From: a virus
Strand: one strand, 5' to 3'
Length of the DNA: 64,000 bases
Virus record (IMG/VR): IMGVR_UViG_3300032093_000049
Span: 36,017-100,016 of that record
Shown: one piece after another, positions 14,277 to 55,359 of the stretch
Numbering within the stretch: the stretch's first letter is position 1
How the letters are laid out: each line of letters begins with the position of its first letter
The notes under the pieces: generated by a model
Told to the model about the DNA's origin: nothing
Seen by the model: the letters and a program-made list of their open reading frames with translations, nothing else
The model's database searches: none
Translations under genes and position numbers: made by a program

Positions 14277-17006
14277 TTATTCTTTATCATATTTATTTTT
14301 GTTCTCCCTAGCAATCTGCAATTGTTTATCAGCTATTTCTTTCTGAGCTTGTATCTTTTCTCTTTCAATTTGATTCTTCTCTGAAGAAAGCATATTTCTA
14401 TTTGTTTCCTTTTGTCTTTCTAAACTTGTCTGTTCTTGATACTGTTCAGTTTGTCTGATTTCTTTCATAGCATCACTATAGTCAGACATCAAGTTTTGAT
14501 TAAGGTCAACCATTGATCCCATACCAGCAGATCTAATTTCTGCAACAAGAATATCACGTTGTCTATTCTTCTCAGCCTCCATTGCTTCATGGTCTCTTCT
14601 AAGTTGTTCTTCTTGAGCTTTAGCCTGAAGCATCTGTTCTTGCATTTGCTGTTGCTGTTGCATTTCTTGCTGCTTCATCTGAGTAGACTTATCTTCTGCC
14701 GTTTTAAGTACTGTATTAAGCTCTGCAATAGAATCAGACTGTACTACTCTACCTAAGTCATATATAGAAGCACCGGTAGTGTTATTCTGTAGAGCCATTG
14801 CTTTTAACTGTTCTAGTATAGCCCTATGATTTGCAGTAGTAGTACAGAATATATTAAGATCTCTAAGAAGTAAATCAGTACCGTTGATTTCAAAGTTTAC
14901 TTTTTCATCTGCTCCAGTAATATATGACAATCTTACTGAAGGTTTATTAGAGTGGTAGTACTGAGCTAAGTCTGTACGCATTTGATGCACCCTTGGCATT
15001 AGATAATCACAGTGCTGGATAAAGTACATCTCTGTTTGTGCATAAGATGCATTTACTGCTTGTTCTACACCGGTAGCAGTTTGCTGTGATAACTGTTGAC
15101 CCATCCTTTGGGGGTTAACACCAATTACTTCATATGCTTGTTGCTTAAAGTAATTAGCTAGGTTAACCCTGGAAAGCAAACGGTTTGTTTGTTCTAGGTC
15201 AAGTTTTTGGAAGTGCTGGAAATTTAATGCATTCTCTGTATTTGTAATAGAAGTGTCCAGTGGTAACATCTGGAAGTTCTTCATTGCCACATAAGCTTTT
15301 GCTAAGTTATTCTTACCCCAGTCTTCATTCATGGAGTGTCTAGGAAGTGCATTCTGATCTAAAAGAATAACTGTACCTAGTTCATCAACAAGGATATCTG
15401 CAATCTGGTTATTAACAATATTATATCCAATCTGGTATGGCTTCATTAAGTCAATAAGAGCAGTAGACTTAGTGTTCCTATCTGAGAATACAGAACCTTC
15501 TACTGGTAGTTTACATCCATATAGAGTTGCATCACCCTTAAACTGAAACTTAATAGGACCTATTTTGTTTTTATCTACACCTATGTAAATTGGAGTAAAT
15601 CCACCTGGGTTATTCATACCCCAGAATGATGGAATGTTTGGTCCAATCTTTACACCACCCCATACCTCATTGATCCAAATCCAATCTATATGTTCACCAT
15701 ACACCAGATTATCTTTAGTTCTGTTCTTAAAGAGTCTAGTATCATAGATAGGTTTGTCTGTAACTTTATAATCTTCTGTTACAATCTCAGTAACAACTTC
15801 ACCATTGTCTGCTACTTTAGTAAGATGTCCTACTTTACGCTGTGACTTCCAGTAGCATGTTGTTACTCTTAGTAAGTATGCAGTACCTGCAGTATCATAA
15901 TCTTCACCTTCAGAAAGAATTTGTGTTACTACATCACCTCCCTGTAGTACAGATCCTGCCATCATAGATGTGTATTGACGGTATGCAAGTGAAGGCATGT
16001 TTACGTTCCACTCATGAGTTCTTGTAGCATCATAATAAGAACCATCATTTTGGAGACCACCAATATTATAACCCGCAGATCTAATAGGATATATTGCTTC
16101 TAGTGCTTCTAATTGATCTTCAGTCATTAAGTATCCATACCTGTCAATTACATCAGCAACAGTATACATATCTGTTTTCCCTACCCAGTTAGCTTGAGAT
16201 ATATATCTTGCATCTGGTGACTTATGATAGAATGTAAGAACAGGATTCCATAGTTCTACTTCATAGTCATCTTCCATCATACGGAAATGCCAGAACTCTC
16301 TATCTGTAATAAGCATGTCACGGAAACCTCTTTCTTCAAGCTCATCCATCTTGAATCTTTCTACATCAATCTTATGTTGATGTGAAGCCCACTGTTCTAC
16401 CATAGATTTGTAGTCTTTCTTAAAGAACTGTTCTATCTCTGGTAATGACTTTAGATTCTGTGGGTTTAATTGTTGTTGTGCTTCTTCTGATTGTGGATCT
16501 AGACCTTGCTCCATTAATGCGGCAACAATTTTCATTTGAGCATCTGCCATTAATACTTCTTCTACAGCAGCTCTTTTTTGTTCCAACATCTCATTATATG
16601 AGAACTCATCTATTGCACGGTAAGTAAGTTTAGTGGATCTCTTTGCAAACTCTGCTACTAAAACATTAATAACATTAGGGATAATAGGGTAGAACTTTAA
16701 TTCTAGTGCAGTAGCATCTTCTTTTGTAAGAGTTTCAATAATATCTACATACTCATTGTCTTCCTCTACAATGTAGTCTGTTCTGTCTATAATACCCTTT
16801 GCAAGCTTGTAGTTCTTCATTAACCTACGTGCATTCCTGCGTAGTTGCTTAAGTCCATTCCACTCTAGCCAGTCTAAGTTCCATGCTGCCCACTCTTCAT
16901 CTTTATCTTTTTTTGGTATAAACTGAAGTGGCTGAGTAATACTACCCATCCTATTGTGTTGAACTTTTGCTCCCTTCTTGAGCTGTAAGGCGTTATATAC
17001 CTGCAT
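14277..17006 (-). CDS. Portal protein (909 aa)
   Basis: Follows terminase; YPIIPNVINVLVAE and WINEVWGGVKIG segments; Gln-rich coiled-coil C-terminus. Confidence 0.85.
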   Translation of the reverse strand: MQVYNALQLKKGAKVQHNRMGSITQPLQFIPKKDKDEEWAAWNLDWLEWNGLKQLRRNARRLMKNYKLAKGIIDRTDYIVEEDNEYVDIIETLTKEDATALELKFYPIIPNVINVLVAEFAKRSTKLTYRAIDEFSYNEMLEQKRAAVEEVLMADAQMKIVAALMEQGLDPQSEEAQQQLNPQNLKSLPEIEQFFKKDYKSMVEQWASHQHKIDVERFKMDELEERGFRDMLITDREFWHFRMMEDDYEVELWNPVLTFYHKSPDARYISQANWVGKTDMYTVADVIDRYGYLMTEDQLEALEAIYPIRSAGYNIGGLQNDGSYYDATRTHEWNVNMPSLAYRQYTSMMAGSVLQGGDVVTQILSEGEDYDTAGTAYLLRVTTCYWKSQRKVGHLTKVADNGEVVTEIVTEDYKVTDKPIYDTRLFKNRTKDNLVYGEHIDWIWINEVWGGVKIGPNIPSFWGMNNPGGFTPIYIGVDKNKIGPIKFQFKGDATLYGCKLPVEGSVFSDRNTKSTALIDLMKPYQIGYNIVNNQIADILVDELGTVILLDQNALPRHSMNEDWGKNNLAKAYVAMKNFQMLPLDTSITNTENALNFQHFQKLDLEQTNRLLSRVNLANYFKQQAYEVIGVNPQRMGQQLSQQTATGVEQAVNASYAQTEMYFIQHCDYLMPRVHQMRTDLAQYYHSNKPSVRLSYITGADEKVNFEINGTDLLLRDLNIFCTTTANHRAILEQLKAMALQNNTTGASIYDLGRVVQSDSIAELNTVLKTAEDKSTQMKQQEMQQQQQMQEQMLQAKAQEEQLRRDHEAMEAEKNRQRDILVAEIRSAGMGSMVDLNQNLMSDYSDAMKEIRQTEQYQEQTSLERQKETNRNMLSSEKNQIEREKIQAQKEIADKQLQIARENKNKYDKE

Positions 17007-31619: not shown

Positions 31620-31844
31620 TTATTTTCCAATAAGAGGATCTATTGCTTTTTTCATATTTCTACGAAACGTAATATTACTTTTAGCTTTTATATCTCTATG
31701 AGTAAACTGCCAAAATTCTCCTGTACTATTTATAATCACAGTATAAATAGTGTCTGTCTCATGACCATAGTCTGTTATCATCCATATGAAGCCTGAGCCT
31801 TTTGGTGTATCTACTTCTACTCTATTTTTAGGTTCATACATCAT
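31620..31844 (-). CDS. Small hypothetical beta protein (likely start MMYEP)
   Basis: VDTPKGSG...DYG.E......GEFW pattern. Confidence 0.6.
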   Translation of the reverse strand: MMYEPKNRVEVDTPKGSGFIWMITDYGHETDTIYTVIINSTGEFWQFTHRDIKAKSNITFRRNMKKAIDPLIGK

Positions 31845-32508
31845 ATTCAATAATTTTAATTCTTTCATCTCTTCCTACTAGTTGCTTGTATAAGTCTACA
31901 TCACTAGACCATTCTTGACCGGTCCAAAACTCAAACCCGGGATAGTTAGCTTTATACTCACAACATTTTTCATACCCACCTAAGAGATAAACATATTCAC
32001 AATCAAGTAGCTTAGCAGTCTCACATTCATAGTACTGAGCAACTGTACCTAGGGATAATTTAGGGTCTGCATAATCCCATATAAACTGATATGCTACAAA
32101 CTGTGTTTCAAACTGTTTATATAAACTAATCCCTACTAGGTAATCTGTCCAGTATTCTATAACCTGACAATCTTTAAAAGACTCTAACTTAATATCTCTT
32201 TTAAACCCATGATAAGAACAGTACTTTTCATAAAGCTCTTCATACATCTCTTTATGAGCTAATACATCTCCTACAGCAACATTAACTTTCTTAGATAATT
32301 TTTTTGTAGTCTTTGTGGGTTGATAAATACTCAGATCTAATCTAGTGCTACGCTCATTATACCATCTGCCCTCCCATGGTATCCATCCTTGCTTTAGTGC
32401 ATCTATACAAGATTCATTTGGTTCTAATATACCATAGGCACAGTTAATGATAAGCTCTAGATCACTGACTTTACCAAAGCCTTTGATATGGTCAAAGTAT
32501 ACTTTCAC
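31834..32508 (-). CDS. ATE1/Bpt-like aminoacyl-tRNA--protein transferase (224 aa)
   Basis: LYEKY...H, WDYADPKLSLGT, YVYL.GY...C.YK..Y matches ATE_C; STRLDL...PTKTTKK matches the ATE_N tail. Confidence 0.78.
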   Translation of the reverse strand: MKVYFDHIKGFGKVSDLELIINCAYGILEPNESCIDALKQGWIPWEGRWYNERSTRLDLSIYQPTKTTKKLSKKVNVAVGDVLAHKEMYEELYEKYCSYHGFKRDIKLESFKDCQVIEYWTDYLVGISLYKQFETQFVAYQFIWDYADPKLSLGTVAQYYECETAKLLDCEYVYLLGGYEKCCEYKANYPGFEFWTGQEWSSDVDLYKQLVGRDERIKIIEYDV

Positions 32509-46431: not shown

Positions 46432-46629
46432 ATGAAAGAGGTGATTAACTTTTTCAAATACTTAGTGGTGTGGATAAGTCAAAACTTGTCCATACCATTT
46501 TGGATGGTGGGTCATATTCATTTATCCACTAATATCTATGAAGATATTTATGAAATCTTAGCTTCAATTGGAATGAATCTAATTGTTGCTGTAGGGTTTA
46601 TTATAGATTACTTAGATTCAAGAAAATAA
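46432..46629 (+). CDS. Small membrane protein (65 aa)
   Basis: Two hydrophobic segments. Confidence 0.6.
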   Translation: MKEVINFFKYLVVWISQNLSIPFWMVGHIHLSTNIYEDIYEILASIGMNLIVAVGFIIDYLDSRK

Positions 46630-46637
46630 AAACTTAA

Positions 46638-46785
46638 GCCTCCATAGCTGTTAGGGTCGCAACTGAAGCAGTGAGTGGTTCAGATAGAAATATGTAACAA
46701 GCATACTCTATGACGGTAGAGATTTGAAAAAAGATGCTGTAACCTAGAGTAATCTGATAGGTGGGTTCAATTCCCACTGGAGGCA
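46638..46785 (+). ncRNA. Oversized tRNA-like RNA (148 nt) with canonical acceptor stem and T-arm
   Basis: gcctcca/tggaggc 7-bp stem, TAGCT after it, gtggg-ttcaatt-cccac T-arm; central part ~70 nt longer than a tRNA. Confidence 0.7.
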
Positions 46786-46807
46786 CAAACTTTTAAAATC
46801 AAAGAAA

Positions 46808-46978
46808 ATGATTGTATTTCACATAATTGCAGTATTATCAGTAGTAATACTATTTATTTCATGTATAGTAATTGCATTTACTGAAAAGTATATACCAATA
46901 TGGATAAGAATTATTCTGCCATTGCTTACATTTCCTTTGGTTCTTGCAGTATTAGATTCAATTTATAGAAACCTTTAA
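46808..46978 (+). CDS. 56-aa two-TM protein, paralog 1 (not in ORF track)
   Basis: ...KYIPIWIRIILPLLTFPLVLAVLDSIYRNL. Confidence 0.7.
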   Translation: MIVFHIIAVLSVVILFISCIVIAFTEKYIPIWIRIILPLLTFPLVLAVLDSIYRNL

Positions 46979-46989
46979 ATTAGAGTAAG

Positions 46990-47523
46990 ATGAAAGCAAA
47001 ACTGATTAAAGAAAAAGACTACTATGACTTGTATAAAATTGATGAAGATGGTAAGAGAGTAACCTTTGCATCTACTGAAGATTACAAACAGAAACTATCC
47101 AAACAAAACTGTGATGAGATATTTGGAGTAGTTGATGTTGAGAAGTTGGCAGATTCAATTTTTGAAAAAGAATCTTCCAATATGCTTCACCCTCAACATC
47201 AAATGAGAAATACTTTCATATTAGGATTCAACAAAGCAATGGAGTTGAATAAAGACAAGGTGTTTAGTAAAGGAGATATGGCTTATATTATGAACATAAT
47301 GTCAATATATGAGCTTTCTTTTGAAGATGCTATTATCAAATTTCAATCCCTACAACAACCAACAGAAATTGAAGTTGAGATTGAGATGAAAAAAGTTGTT
47401 GATAAAACAAAAGTGATTGGTGCAGTAAAGGGAGTTAAGGGTAGTGGAGATAAGATTACAACTTATAAATCAGTGCCAAAACTTGACTCAGAAGGATGCC
47501 TTATATTAACTAAAAAGATTTGA
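46990..47523 (+). CDS. Hypothetical protein (177 aa)
   Basis: KLSKQNCDEIFGVVDVEKLA...PKLDSEGCLIL. Confidence 0.7.
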   Translation: MKAKLIKEKDYYDLYKIDEDGKRVTFASTEDYKQKLSKQNCDEIFGVVDVEKLADSIFEKESSNMLHPQHQMRNTFILGFNKAMELNKDKVFSKGDMAYIMNIMSIYELSFEDAIIKFQSLQQPTEIEVEIEMKKVVDKTKVIGAVKGVKGSGDKITTYKSVPKLDSEGCLILTKKI

Positions 47524-47957: not shown

Positions 47958-48133
47958 AATGGCTGGTTGAGCAATGTGGATTAAAACCTGACGGTAAATT
48001 AGTCATACAAGCCAAAGCAATGGAGAAAGAGCAGATGTTAGATTTTGGTGACTTTATTATTGATGAATTAGAACCTATGGCTCAGAATAGAGAATGGGTT
48101 GAGGAAAGATATAATTACTTTAAATCAGAATAA
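47927..48133 (+). CDS. Hypothetical protein ending FKSE
   Basis: KQTAVEWL...QAKAMEKEQ. Confidence 0.65.
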   Translation: MERMEKQTAVEWLVEQCGLKPDGKLVIQAKAMEKEQMLDFGDFIIDELEPMAQNREWVEERYNYFKSE

Positions 48134-48429
48134 GATGATTCACAAGAACAGCAATCGGGTGTTAGGCTATACTGATGATGCCACACAGTGTTTACACAAG
48201 GATCCTAATCAGGTGAGTGATTCATTTTTTTAAATCAGAATAAGATGTCAATAGTAATCATTAATGCCACATGCATATTTATTGCATTTATGGCCGCAGT
48301 AGTAATTGGTATAACTCAAAAGGATATACCATTGTGGATAAGGATAGCATTGCCTGTGTTTACATTTCCTCTTGTGTTAGCAGCAATAGATTTGATTATA
48401 CGTAATTACTTTTAAATCAGAATAAGATG
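48119..48429 (+). repeat. Three copies of junction repeat TTTAAATCAGAATAAGATG
   Basis: At 48119-48137, 48229-48247 and 48411-48429; each ends in the ATG of the next ORF. Confidence 0.9.
48245..48415 (+). CDS. 56-aa two-TM protein, paralog 2 (not in ORF track)
   Basis: ...KDIPLWIRIALPVFTFPLVLAAIDLIIRNYF. Confidence 0.7.
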   Translation: MSIVIINATCIFIAFMAAVVIGITQKDIPLWIRIALPVFTFPLVLAAIDLIIRNYF

Positions 48430-54609: not shown

Positions 54610-55359
54610 ATGGGAATAGTATTGCCAACAACAAAGCAAGCTCCTACTCATAAGAGCCCTAAGAATCTAATTATCTTTTCTAAGCCTAAAATAGGTAAGA
54701 CAAGTTTGTTGAGCACTCTTGACAACTGTCTAATCTTAGACTTAGAAGGAGGTACTAAGTATCTTAACTCTATGAAGGTAGAGGCCAGTAGCTTTGAAGA
54801 AATCAGAGAAATTGGAAAAGCTATCAAAGAAGCAGGCAATCCATACAAGTACATTGCAGTAGATACAATCACTGCATTGGAAGAGATGGTAGTACCTTAT
54901 GCTGAAGTGCTTTATTCTAAGAGTCCAATGGGTAAGAACTGGTTTAATCCAGGTGGTGGTAAAGAAAAGTATGGAACTATTCTTGGCCTACCTGAAGGTG
55001 CTGGTTATTATTGGACAAGACAAGCCTTCACTAAGGTGATTGATTACATTCTAACTTGGGCTCCTTATGTGATCTTTGTTGGTCACGTAAAAGACACTCA
55101 GTTAGAAAAGGCAGGTGGTACATTTAATGCACTTGACCTAGATCTGACAGGTAAGTTAAAGAGAATAACAACTTCTAACTCTGATGCTATTGGTTACTTG
55201 TATAGAAAGGGAGATAAGAATATCCTTAGTTTCAAGACTAATGATGATATCTCTTGTGGTGCAAGACCAGAGCATTTGAGAAATCAAGAAATTGTGGTTT
55301 CTGAAATTGATGAGACCGGTGAGTATAAGACTTACTGGGACAAAGTATTCGTAGATTAA
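54610..55359 (+). CDS. Sak4-like (AAA_24) ATPase/recombinase (249 aa)
   Basis: SKPKIGKT, LDLEGG, AVDT, VGH, DAIGY. Confidence 0.8.
   Translation: MGIVLPTTKQAPTHKSPKNLIIFSKPKIGKTSLLSTLDNCLILDLEGGTKYLNSMKVEASSFEEIREIGKAIKEAGNPYKYIAVDTITALEEMVVPYAEVLYSKSPMGKNWFNPGGGKEKYGTILGLPEGAGYYWTRQAFTKVIDYILTWAPYVIFVGHVKDTQLEKAGGTFNALDLDLTGKLKRITTSNSDAIGYLYRKGDKNILSFKTNDDISCGARPEHLRNQEIVVSEIDETGEYKTYWDKVFVD

What the first reader, a model, noticed from the sequence alone, without database searches (positions are those of the whole stretch)
46638..46785. 148-nt tRNA-like RNA with perfect acceptor stem and T-arm but an expanded core
Seen: GCCTCCA-TAGCT at the 5' end and GTGGG-TTCAATT-CCCAC-TGGAGGC-A at the 3' end are textbook tRNA parts. 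The ~115 nt between them give no normal D or anticodon arm but nested stems (tcagat/atctga, agcat/atgct, ctcta/tagag). It is too short for a typical tmRNA or a group I intron-containing tRNA. Inference: a tRNA mimic that could decoy anticodon nucleases or synthetases, or serve as a dedicated aminoacyl donor for the phage transferase (speculative).
Basis: partly seen in the sequence, partly recalled or inferred. Interest (0 to 1): 0.75.

Follow-up and report, generated by a model that had tools for sequence, protein, structure and literature searches.

The report
Orphan oversized tRNA-like phage gene
A crAss-like phage carries one 148-base gene that keeps a flawless upper half of a tRNA (acceptor stem and T arm) but cannot decode; no related phage has it, so it is either a tRNA-shaped RNA cut out of the message or a tRNA gene broken by an insertion.

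Summary
The tRNA-like ends are real. A 7-bp all-Watson-Crick acceptor stem, U8 and a canonical T arm exactly fill the gap between two small + strand genes, far beyond chance.

The middle is not shown to be a designed core. Composition is bipartite:
- nt 1-46 and 124-148 are 54-56% GC.
- nt 47-123 are 32.5% GC, like the genome.

So it reads as a tRNA 5' part and T arm/acceptor separated by a 77-nt AT-rich insert at the variable-loop site.

tRNA and tmRNA models match only the T arm. ARAGORN's "tRNA-Phe plus intron" call is an artefact, because shuffled interiors give it too.

No homolog was found in 96 related viral records. The three closest complete relatives have another gene at the site. 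Forty-six phage contigs keep the ATE-like transferase without this RNA, so the "dedicated donor" idea has no support.

Best reading: a lineage-specific, non-decoding tRNA-shaped RNA excised by RNase P and RNase Z, in the style of T4 species 1 RNA. A recently disrupted tRNA pseudogene is a close rival. This scan has noted this kind of RNA before on other DNA.

In passing: a large family of phage tRNA-like genes shares one acceptor/T-arm shell around hypervariable interiors.

The parts
46638..46644 (+). Acceptor stem, 5' strand (GCCTCCA), nt 1-7
   Evidence: Pairs 7/7 Watson-Crick with 46778-46784; pair probability 0.998-1.0.
46645..46646 (+). U8-A9 connector
   Evidence: Read from the sequence; standard tRNA positions 8-9.
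46647..46683 (+). GC-rich lower-half remnant (nt 10-46): a weak D-like arm (nt 10-26, GCTG/CAAC with a C.A mismatch, loop containing GGG) and a hairpin (nt 26-46, CTGAA/TTCAG)
   Evidence: nt 10-27 are 55.6% GC and nt 28-46 are 52.6% GC, against 34% for the genome. Hairpin pair probability 0.90. ARAGORN draws it as D arm plus anticodon arm 'Ser(tga)' once the insert is removed: 20 of 20 constructs at the default threshold, but so do 12.5% of shuffles, and none at 105%. No U33, no A14.
46684..46760 (+). 77-nt AT-rich insert at the variable-loop position (nt 47-123)
   Evidence: 32.5% GC, the genome background. The variable-arm stretch nt 45-118 folds with z -1.70, 10 of 200 shuffles as good. 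No homolog anywhere searched. Its last 24 nt resemble the local gene-junction repeat only weakly (18 of 24; position-weight-matrix rank 107 of 200,000).
46761..46777 (+). T arm (GTGGG / TTCAATT / CCCAC), nt 124-140
   Evidence: 5/5 Watson-Crick pairs and a consensus T loop. It is the only part matched by Rfam tRNA (12.9 bits) and tmRNA (12.4 bits).
46778..46785 (+). Acceptor stem, 3' strand (TGGAGGC), plus discriminator A; no encoded CCA
46786..46789 (+). Trailer CAAA
   Evidence: Discriminator followed by CAAA is the commonest trailer of ordinary tRNA genes in the related phage contigs (94 of about 350 ARAGORN tRNAs, allowing for ARAGORN's one-base offset seen).
46432..46629 (+). Upstream 65-aa ORF; its stop lies 8 nt before the element
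   Evidence: Conserved at 72-77% aa identity in relatives G091, G096 and G061, where a different ORF follows it directly.
46808..46978 (+). Downstream 56-aa hydrophobic ORF; its start lies 22 nt after the element. Absent from relatives at this site.
   Evidence: A paralogous copy lies at 48245-48415 (73% nt identity over 98 nt).

Best explanation
This is a lineage-specific, tRNA-derived gene for a non-decoding, tRNA-shaped RNA.

Shown:
- The upper half of a tRNA (acceptor stem stacked on the T arm, U8, G-G in the D-like loop) is intact.
- The lower half is degenerate.
- A 77-nt AT-rich segment sits where the variable loop should be.

Inferred mechanism:
- The gene has no promoter or terminator of its own, so it is transcribed inside the + strand operon of small genes.
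- Host RNase P cuts before G1 and RNase Z cuts after A73, and the CCA-adding enzyme completes the 3' end.
- This releases a stable RNA of about 151 nt and, in the same act, severs the message between the 65-aa and 56-aa genes.
- The RNA does not read codons. Whether it is aminoacylated, and what it does afterwards, is unknown.

Its design (acceptor stem, two extended arms, T arm) is that of phage T4 species 1 RNA.
For: - Shell: flawless and far beyond chance.
- Placement: it fills the intergenic gap exactly, on the same strand as all its neighbours. No promoter-like or terminator-like site flanks it.
- Trailer: CAAA, as in ordinary tRNA genes of related phages.
- Where the defects are: all lie in the lower half. 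On the ARAGORN cloverleaf, 2 of 9 pairs are broken and A14, R15, A21 and U33 are missing, against 0 of 12 pairs and no T-loop defect in the upper half. One-sided Fisher p is about 0.005 (my count). That suggests selection on the half that RNase P, RNase Z and the CCA enzyme read (established knowledge of tRNA processing).
- Precedent: T4 rnaC folds with the same layout, and no Rfam family covers it either.
- Relatives: oversized tRNA-like genes of 118-155 nt are common in relatives of this phage.
Against: - No homolog was found in 96 related viral records or by any pattern scan, so there is no covariation and no evidence of conservation.
- The three closest complete relatives lack it at the syntenic site.
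- The interior is not more structured than shuffles, and the insert has plain genome composition, as random inserted DNA would.
- The upper-versus-lower defect count depends on a cloverleaf assignment that is only weakly better than chance.
- No expression data could be obtained.
Confidence: 0.45

Rival explanations
1. It is a recently disrupted tRNA gene, that is, a pseudogene. A tRNA (perhaps tRNA-Thr-like) acquired by this lineage was split by about 77 nt of phage-like AT-rich DNA inserted at the variable loop, and it is now decaying. RNase P and RNase Z may still cut it, but the RNA has no role.
For: - Composition is bipartite, and the insert matches the genome background.
- With the insert removed, ARAGORN calls a normal-length tRNA at the default threshold.
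- The D arm and anticodon arm carry mismatches and lack A14 and U33.
- There is no homolog and it is absent from all relatives.
- The site is a variable hot spot of small cassette-like genes with junction repeats.
- The 5' 11 nt and the T arm resemble ordinary phage tRNA-Thr(UGU) genes.
Against: Twelve of 12 upper-half pairs and the T loop are untouched, while the lower half has about six defects. Neutral decay should hit both halves. The spliced form is only marginally tRNA-like (12.5% of shuffles pass, none of the real constructs at 105%).
Confidence: 0.33
2. It is a working decoding tRNA whose extra sequence is removed as an intron or tolerated as a giant variable arm, like the 'enigmatic introns' of Lak megaphage tRNAs.
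For: - ARAGORN at a relaxed threshold calls tRNA-Phe(GAA) with a 57-nt intron.
- Relatives carry tRNA genes that score 37-54 bits on Rfam tRNA with 51-68 nt in place of the anticodon loop or arm.
- Lak phage tRNAs with introns are reported in 10.1101/356790.
Against: - The ARAGORN call is an artefact: 50-98% of shuffled interiors are 'detected' at that threshold, and the real sequence fails at the default.
- Rfam tRNA matches only the T arm.
- No candidate loop has U33.
- No RtcB or RNA ligase gene was found in the genome.
- In the large shell family the predicted anticodons scatter over 40 types, as for shuffles.
Confidence: 0.07
3. It is a dedicated aminoacyl carrier for the phage ATE/Bpt-like transferase (31834-32508), charged through acceptor-stem marks and used off the ribosome.
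For: The acceptor/T minihelix with A73 is intact. Transferases of this type use aminoacyl-tRNA and read mainly the acceptor end (established knowledge). Both genes are in one genome.
Against: - The transferase is conserved in 46 other viral contigs, six of them 90-100% complete, and none has a relative of this RNA.
- The two genes lie 14 kb apart on opposite strands.
- No acceptor-stem identity mark that works without an anticodon is present (no G3.U70).
Confidence: 0.05
4. It is a miniature tmRNA-like RNA, or a phage attachment site copied from a host tRNA.
For: A weak tmRNA hit covers the T arm. A short frame GCA...TGA lies in the insert. Phage attachment sites often copy tRNA 3' ends (established knowledge).
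Against: - ARAGORN finds no tmRNA even at 60% threshold.
- There is no G3.U70, and the Rfam tmRNA score is 12.4 against the 47 bits needed.
- No integrase gene was found.
- The 3' 23-mer occurs in none of 185,579 species genomes.
Confidence: 0.03

Closest known systems
Phage T4 species 1 RNA (rnaC, 139 nt; NC_000866 70908-71046)
   Same: Phage-encoded and about 140-150 nt. A tRNA-type T arm and terminal stem enclose two extended arms in place of the D and anticodon arms. Not a decoder. No curated Rfam family covers it. Function unknown (my knowledge of the T4 literature).
   Different: T4 rnaC lies in a tRNA gene cluster and is conserved among T-even phages. The window element is the only tRNA-like gene in its 100-kb record, has no relatives, and its interior is not significantly structured. 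No sequence similarity was sought or seen.
Lak megaphage tRNAs with 'enigmatic introns' (Devoto et al., bioRxiv 10.1101/356790)
   Same: Oversized tRNA genes in phages, missed by bacterial tRNA finders, with short inserts far too small for group I introns.
   Different: In Lak the host tRNA is recognisable, intron-less alleles exist and the inserts are highly conserved. Here the tRNA model fails, no allele without the insert is known and nothing is conserved.
Oversized tRNA genes of related phages (for example L020:2812-2929, L009:5995-6117)
   Same: Same phage group, same genomic neighbourhood (within 2 kb of the homolog of the 177-aa gene), same N73-CAA trailer, and 118-155 nt long.
   Different: Those score 37-54 bits on Rfam tRNA, with normal D arms and the extra sequence in place of the anticodon loop or arm. 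The window element scores only on its T arm, and its extra sequence sits at the variable-loop site.
tRNA-like domain of tmRNA
   Same: Acceptor stem and T arm without an anticodon arm; a long helix enters just before the T arm.
   Different: No G3.U70, no tag frame with a resume codon found by ARAGORN, no pseudoknots, 148 nt rather than about 350 nt, and Rfam 12.4 bits against the 47 needed.
Giant-variable-arm tRNA-like RNAs of Bacteroidota and their phages
   Same: About 147 nt, with a domain of about 78 nt at the variable-loop site. Missed by tRNA finders, and occurs in phages of Bacteroidota.
   Different: That family is described with a class II (Leu-like) D arm and an Asp-type anticodon loop, and is strongly conserved. 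The window element has neither mark, and a look-up by sequence found no look-alike. I hold no sequence of that family, so homology was not tested.

Membership tests
tRNA (Rfam RF00005) | Full cloverleaf scoring at or above the 29-bit gathering score | tested here: not met
   Only the T arm matches: model positions 47-63, 12.9 bits, E 0.6. No hit in the gathering scan or the E<=10 scan.
tRNA (Rfam RF00005) | 7-bp acceptor stem, U8, and a 5-bp T stem with a TTCRA loop | tested here: met
   Read from the sequence; pair probabilities about 1.0.
tRNA (Rfam RF00005) | 7-nt anticodon loop with U33 on a 5-bp stem | tested here: not met
   The best candidate, nt 28-44, has a G.G mismatch and the loop AGUGAGU with G at position 33. 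The alternative perfect stem 26-30/42-46 has an 11-nt loop.
Intron-containing tRNA | A canonical cloverleaf appears when one segment is removed from the anticodon loop | tested here: not met
   ARAGORN -i finds nothing at the default threshold. The Phe(GAA) call at 90% threshold is matched by 50-98% of shuffled interiors.
Intron-containing tRNA | Splicing and ligation enzymes, or a self-splicing intron fold | tested here: not met
   No RtcB and no RNA_ligase family gene in the genome. No Rfam intron or ribozyme family in the region.
tmRNA (RF00023) | G3.U70, a tag reading frame, pseudoknots, and a score of at least 47 bits | tested here: not met
   C3-G70 in the sequence. Rfam gives 12.4 bits on the T arm only. 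ARAGORN -m finds none even at 60% threshold.
T4 species 1 RNA type (phage oversized tRNA-like stable RNA) | Terminal acceptor-like stem plus T arm enclosing two extended arms; about 120-170 nt; phage-encoded | tested here: met
   The minimum-free-energy fold of the element has arms 10-65 and 67-113 between the acceptor stem and the T arm. T4 rnaC folds likewise.
T4 species 1 RNA type (phage oversized tRNA-like stable RNA) | Conserved among related phages, and located in a tRNA gene cluster | tested here: not met
   No relative in 96 related records. No other tRNA gene in the 100-kb record.
T4 species 1 RNA type (phage oversized tRNA-like stable RNA) | Accumulates as a stable, RNase P-processed RNA | not testable with these tools
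YrlA / Y RNA (tRNA-like, Ro-binding) | Match to the Rfam Y-RNA-like models; the termini form the Ro-binding stem | tested here: not met
   No such family among hits at E<=10. Here the termini form the acceptor stem itself.
Giant-variable-arm tRNA-like RNA of Bacteroidota (earlier scan notes) | Class II D arm and Asp-type anticodon loop | tested here: not met
   The D region is GCTG/TTAGGGTCG/CAAC, not the Leu-type GCGGAATTGGTAGACGC. There is no GUC loop.
Giant-variable-arm tRNA-like RNA of Bacteroidota (earlier scan notes) | Sequence or model homology to family members | not testable with these tools
   No member sequence was available. The look-up by sequence found none.

The most novel reading that the evidence does not exclude
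The element may be one instance of a broad, uncatalogued design in phages: a constant tRNA upper half (acceptor stem plus T arm) used as a processing and stabilising scaffold that displays a variable 'cargo' RNA in place of the decoding half.

The strongest sign that such a design exists is the AGTCAGG-shell family seen in passing. It has at least 166 distinct oversized members with one shell and hypervariable, structured interiors, and up to 12 copies in one phage. If the window RNA works this way, its 77-nt insert is the functional part.
Probability: 0.15. Interest if true: 0.75.

Novelty: new member of a known kind. Interest (0 to 1): 0.33.

Why it matters
On its own this is a small matter: one orphan RNA gene whose function cannot be inferred, and which may be a broken tRNA.

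It matters as one more data point that phages often carry tRNA-shaped genes that standard finders miss and that cannot decode. T4 species 1 RNA has posed that puzzle for 50 years.

It also gives a practical warning. ARAGORN's intron mode 'finds' intron-bearing tRNAs in most random sequences that are framed by a good acceptor stem and T arm. Reports of short tRNA introns in phages therefore need shuffle controls.

The shell family noticed in passing is the more promising lead for working out what such RNAs do.

Tried and rejected
Homolog searches that found nothing:
- blastn against 50,697 phage records.
- nhmmer against 67 syntenic loci.
- Exact or degenerate patterns in viral contigs (the two hits are adjacent ordinary tRNAs), metagenome contigs and 185,579 species genomes.
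- Covariance model R1 of the element against the whole records behind 50 + 46 related loci. The best hits were 12-15 bits, in coding DNA.

Readings rejected:
- Intron reading: rejected by shuffle controls.
- Archaeal-type bulge-helix-bulge intron and archaeal host: rejected. The portal's relatives are crAss-like phages of Bacteroidota and a Leptolyngbya phage.
- Attachment site: rejected.

Other tests:
- Antisense or repeat targets of the interior within the genome: only one 16-of-17 direct match at window 54767-54783, E 0.17, taken as chance.
- Origin of the insert from the local gene-junction repeat: weak, about 0.07 expected per element.
- Conserved protein neighbour of the AGTCAGG-shell RNAs: none; the best cluster occurs in 10 of 120 loci.
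- The 50-aa minus-strand ORF 46634-46786 that overlaps the element was not pursued. Every neighbouring gene is on the + strand, and the frame is simply the reverse complement of the RNA.

Full report
THE OBSERVATION

At window 46638-46785 (+) the sequence begins GCCTCCA-TA-GCT and ends GTGGG-TTCAATT-CCCAC-TGGAGGC-A.
- The two 7-mers pair perfectly, and the T arm is canonical.
- All 12 pairs are Watson-Crick and nine are G-C, in a genome of 34% GC.
- The element exactly occupies the 178-nt gap between two + strand ORFs, 46432-46629 and 46808-46978: 8 nt after a stop codon and 22 nt before a start codon.

My own loose scanner (G-U allowed, spacing 40-260) finds 1.3 such motifs per random genome, so the bare motif is not rare. 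Restricting to Watson-Crick pairs and to this G-C content lowers the expectation to roughly 1e-5 or less (my scaling from base composition). The shell is real.

However:
- They have low ensemble probability, 0.01-0.18.
- They compete with several other folds within 2-4 kcal/mol.
- The interior alone is not more stable than shuffles (z -1.42). The variable-arm stretch nt 45-118, which spans the insert, has z -1.70.
- The z of -3.16 for the whole element is carried by the shell.

WHAT THE STANDARD MODELS SAY

- ARAGORN finds no tRNA or tmRNA in the window or in the whole 100-kb virus record, with or without introns.
- Rfam at gathering thresholds finds nothing in the window.
- At E<=10 only the T arm matches tmRNA (12.4 bits). 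Rfam tRNA scores 12.9 bits on the T arm alone.
- At 90% of its thresholds ARAGORN proposes tRNA-Phe(GAA) with a 57-nt intron and a 21-nt variable arm.

I tested that last call with shuffles. With the shell kept and the interior shuffled, 50-98% of sequences are 'detected' at that threshold and 6-31% at the default, where the real sequence fails. The call therefore carries no information.

ANATOMY

Composition splits the element cleanly:
- nt 1-46: 54% GC.
- nt 47-123: 32.5% GC (genome 34%).
- nt 124-148: 56% GC.

Forty-six plus 25 nt is the size of a tRNA without its variable loop. With nt 47 to about 118 removed, ARAGORN at its default threshold draws a normal-length cloverleaf in 20 of 20 constructs. 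It has a D arm at nt 10-26 and an anticodon arm at nt 28-44, labelled 'Ser(tga)'. This is weak evidence, because 12.5% of shuffles of nt 10-46 also pass and nothing passes at 105%.

That lower half has a C.A and a G.G mismatch and lacks A14, R15, A21 and U33. The upper half has no defect at all.

So the element reads as a tRNA 5' part and a T arm/acceptor separated by 77 nt of genome-like DNA at the variable-loop site. It cannot decode.

CONTEXT

- The record is an IMG/VR virus contig of 100,016 bp, estimated 84% complete.
- Its portal is distantly related to those of crAss-like phages of Bacteroides, Flavobacterium and Cellulophaga. The best hit by score is Leptolyngbya phage Lbo-JY46 at 33% identity.
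- No sigma-70-like or Bacteroidota-type promoter motif and no terminator flanks the element. It should therefore be co-transcribed with the surrounding small genes.
- The discriminator is followed by CAAA, the commonest trailer of ordinary tRNA genes in related phage contigs.
- The genome encodes no integrase, RtcB, RNA ligase or CCA-adding enzyme that I could detect.

RELATIVES

No relative of the element exists in any data I could reach.
- Pattern scans of viral, metagenome and genome collections gave nothing.
- A covariance model of the element found nothing in the full records behind 50 loci that share the downstream 177-aa gene, nor behind 46 loci that share the ATE-like transferase.
- The three closest complete genomes have helicase identity of 63-68% and upstream 65-aa ORF identity of 72-77%. 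They keep the gene order up to that ORF and then continue directly with a different gene. L007 joins the 65-aa ORF straight to the 177-aa gene.

The element together with the 56-aa ORF is thus a lineage-specific insertion in a variable stretch of cassette-like mini-genes with repeated junctions. Without homologs, covariation cannot be assessed.

THE KIND OF THING

Oversized tRNA-like genes are nevertheless common in this phage group.
- Within 2 kb of the 177-aa gene homolog, relatives carry genes of 118-155 nt with perfect shells.
- Several score 37-54 bits on Rfam tRNA with 51-68 nt in place of the anticodon loop or arm.
- One 139-nt gene (L051:3496-3634), like the window element, matches only by its T arm.
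- Lak megaphages were reported to have tRNAs with 'enigmatic introns' (10.1101/356790).
- T4 species 1 RNA (rnaC) folds with the same layout: terminal stem, two long arms, T arm. It has no Rfam family.
- Earlier notes of this scan record many such RNAs in other phages. I treat those notes as leads only.

HOW IT MOST LIKELY WORKS

An intact acceptor/T minihelix is what RNase P, RNase Z and the CCA-adding enzyme recognise (established knowledge). Embedded in an operon transcript, the element should be cut out at both ends. That yields a tRNA-shaped RNA of about 151 nt and separates the upstream and downstream cistrons. This step is inferred, not shown.

Whether the released RNA has a role is open, and two readings compete.
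- Selected RNA (0.45). The defects are confined to the lower half: about 6 of 16 features against 0 of 19, one-sided Fisher p about 0.005 (my count, and dependent on the cloverleaf assignment). That argues the upper half is under selection.
- Recently disrupted tRNA gene (0.33). This is supported by the absence of any relative, the unstructured genome-like insert and the hot-spot location.

A decoding tRNA with an intron or a giant arm is unlikely (0.07).

The transferase-donor idea fails the co-occurrence test (0.05). The transferase is kept at 58-84% identity (mostly 72-84%) in 46 contigs, six of them 90-100% complete genomes, and none has this RNA.

The tmRNA-like and attachment-site readings are effectively excluded.

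NOTICED IN PASSING

One acceptor/T-arm shell, AGTCAGG ...
- A few are ordinary decoders, for example a clean tRNA-Lys(UUU).
- 166 distinct members of 95 nt or more have interiors so diverse that 101 are singletons by sequence.
- They show no anticodon hairpin or closing stem at the canonical position beyond chance, no shared motif and no conserved neighbouring protein.
- Small sub-families do show compensatory changes in interior helices: 6 of 28 pairs in a five-member set.
- One contig carries 12 copies in 5 kb, next to a normal tRNA array.

This looks like a tRNA upper half used as a constant frame for variable RNAs and deserves its own study. The window element has a different shell and is not a member.

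VERDICT

This is a real but orphan tRNA-derived gene with a perfect upper half and a non-decoding, probably insertion-disrupted, lower half. It is a new member of a known but unexplained kind. Interest is modest.

Noticed in passing
There are 166 distinct members of 95 nt or more, 101 of them with unique interiors. They have no canonical anticodon hairpin, no shared motif and no conserved neighbouring protein. It looks like a constant tRNA upper half framing variable RNAs.
   Followed up: partly
L161:7183-12207 (+): Twelve shell-type genes (70-142 nt) lie in 5 kb. Most are preceded by an A/T-rich run ending in AAAT (often ...ATAAAAT) and most are followed by CAAA. They sit next to an array of 13 ordinary tRNA genes.
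   Followed up: partly
L091:316-427, L113:7439-7547, L146:4146-4254(-), L150:2636-2743(-), L155:3975-4086: A five-member sub-family of the shell RNAs. The consensus fold has an 8-bp helix at the anticodon-stem position enclosing a small hairpin. Six of 28 pairs show compensatory changes, so the interiors are structured and selected.
   Followed up: yes
L020:2812-2929, L009:5995-6117, L009:5597-5727, L046:2955-3080: Relatives of this phage carry tRNA genes that pass the Rfam tRNA threshold (37-54 bits) with 51-68 nt in place of the anticodon loop or arm. The insert of L009:5995-6117 itself contains a T-arm-like hairpin, as reported for a Lak phage tRNA-Thr intron.
   Followed up: partly
L051:3496-3634: A 139-nt tRNA-like gene inside a tRNA cluster. 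It has the same T arm as the window element (GTGGG TTCGATT CCCAC), is not matched by Rfam tRNA, and has a weak tmRNA hit (16.7 bits) through a 9-bp helix that abuts the T arm. Homology to the window element could not be shown.
   Followed up: partly
method (ARAGORN -i): ARAGORN's intron mode reports an intron-containing tRNA in 72.5% of sequences with a good shell and a shuffled interior (real sequences: 78%). Its predicted anticodons for the shell family scatter over 40 types. Calls of short tRNA introns in phages need such controls.
   Followed up: yes
window 46808-46978 and 48245-48415; junctions at 46969-46992, 48114-48137, 48224-48247, 48406-48429: The 56-aa hydrophobic ORF next to the element has a paralog 1.4 kb downstream (73% nt identity over 98 nt). 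Four gene junctions share a 24-nt stop/ribosome-site/start repeat (TTTAAATCAGAATAAGATG), so this stretch looks like an array of mini-gene cassettes.
   Followed up: partly
window 54767-54783: A 16-of-17 direct copy of the hairpin ACTCTATGACGGTAGAG (element nt 68-84) lies inside the ORF 54610-55359. E is 0.17, so it is probably chance.
   Followed up: no
window 14277-17006 (-): The portal's best-scoring relative is in Leptolyngbya phage Lbo-JY46 (33% identity, E 1e-107), ahead of the crAss-like phages of Bacteroidota (22-28%). The host phylum of this phage is therefore not settled.
   Followed up: no
tRNA genes of L002-L197: The commonest 3' trailer of ordinary tRNA genes in these phage contigs is discriminator + CAAA (94 of about 350). 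No CCA is encoded. The window element shares this trailer.
   Followed up: partly
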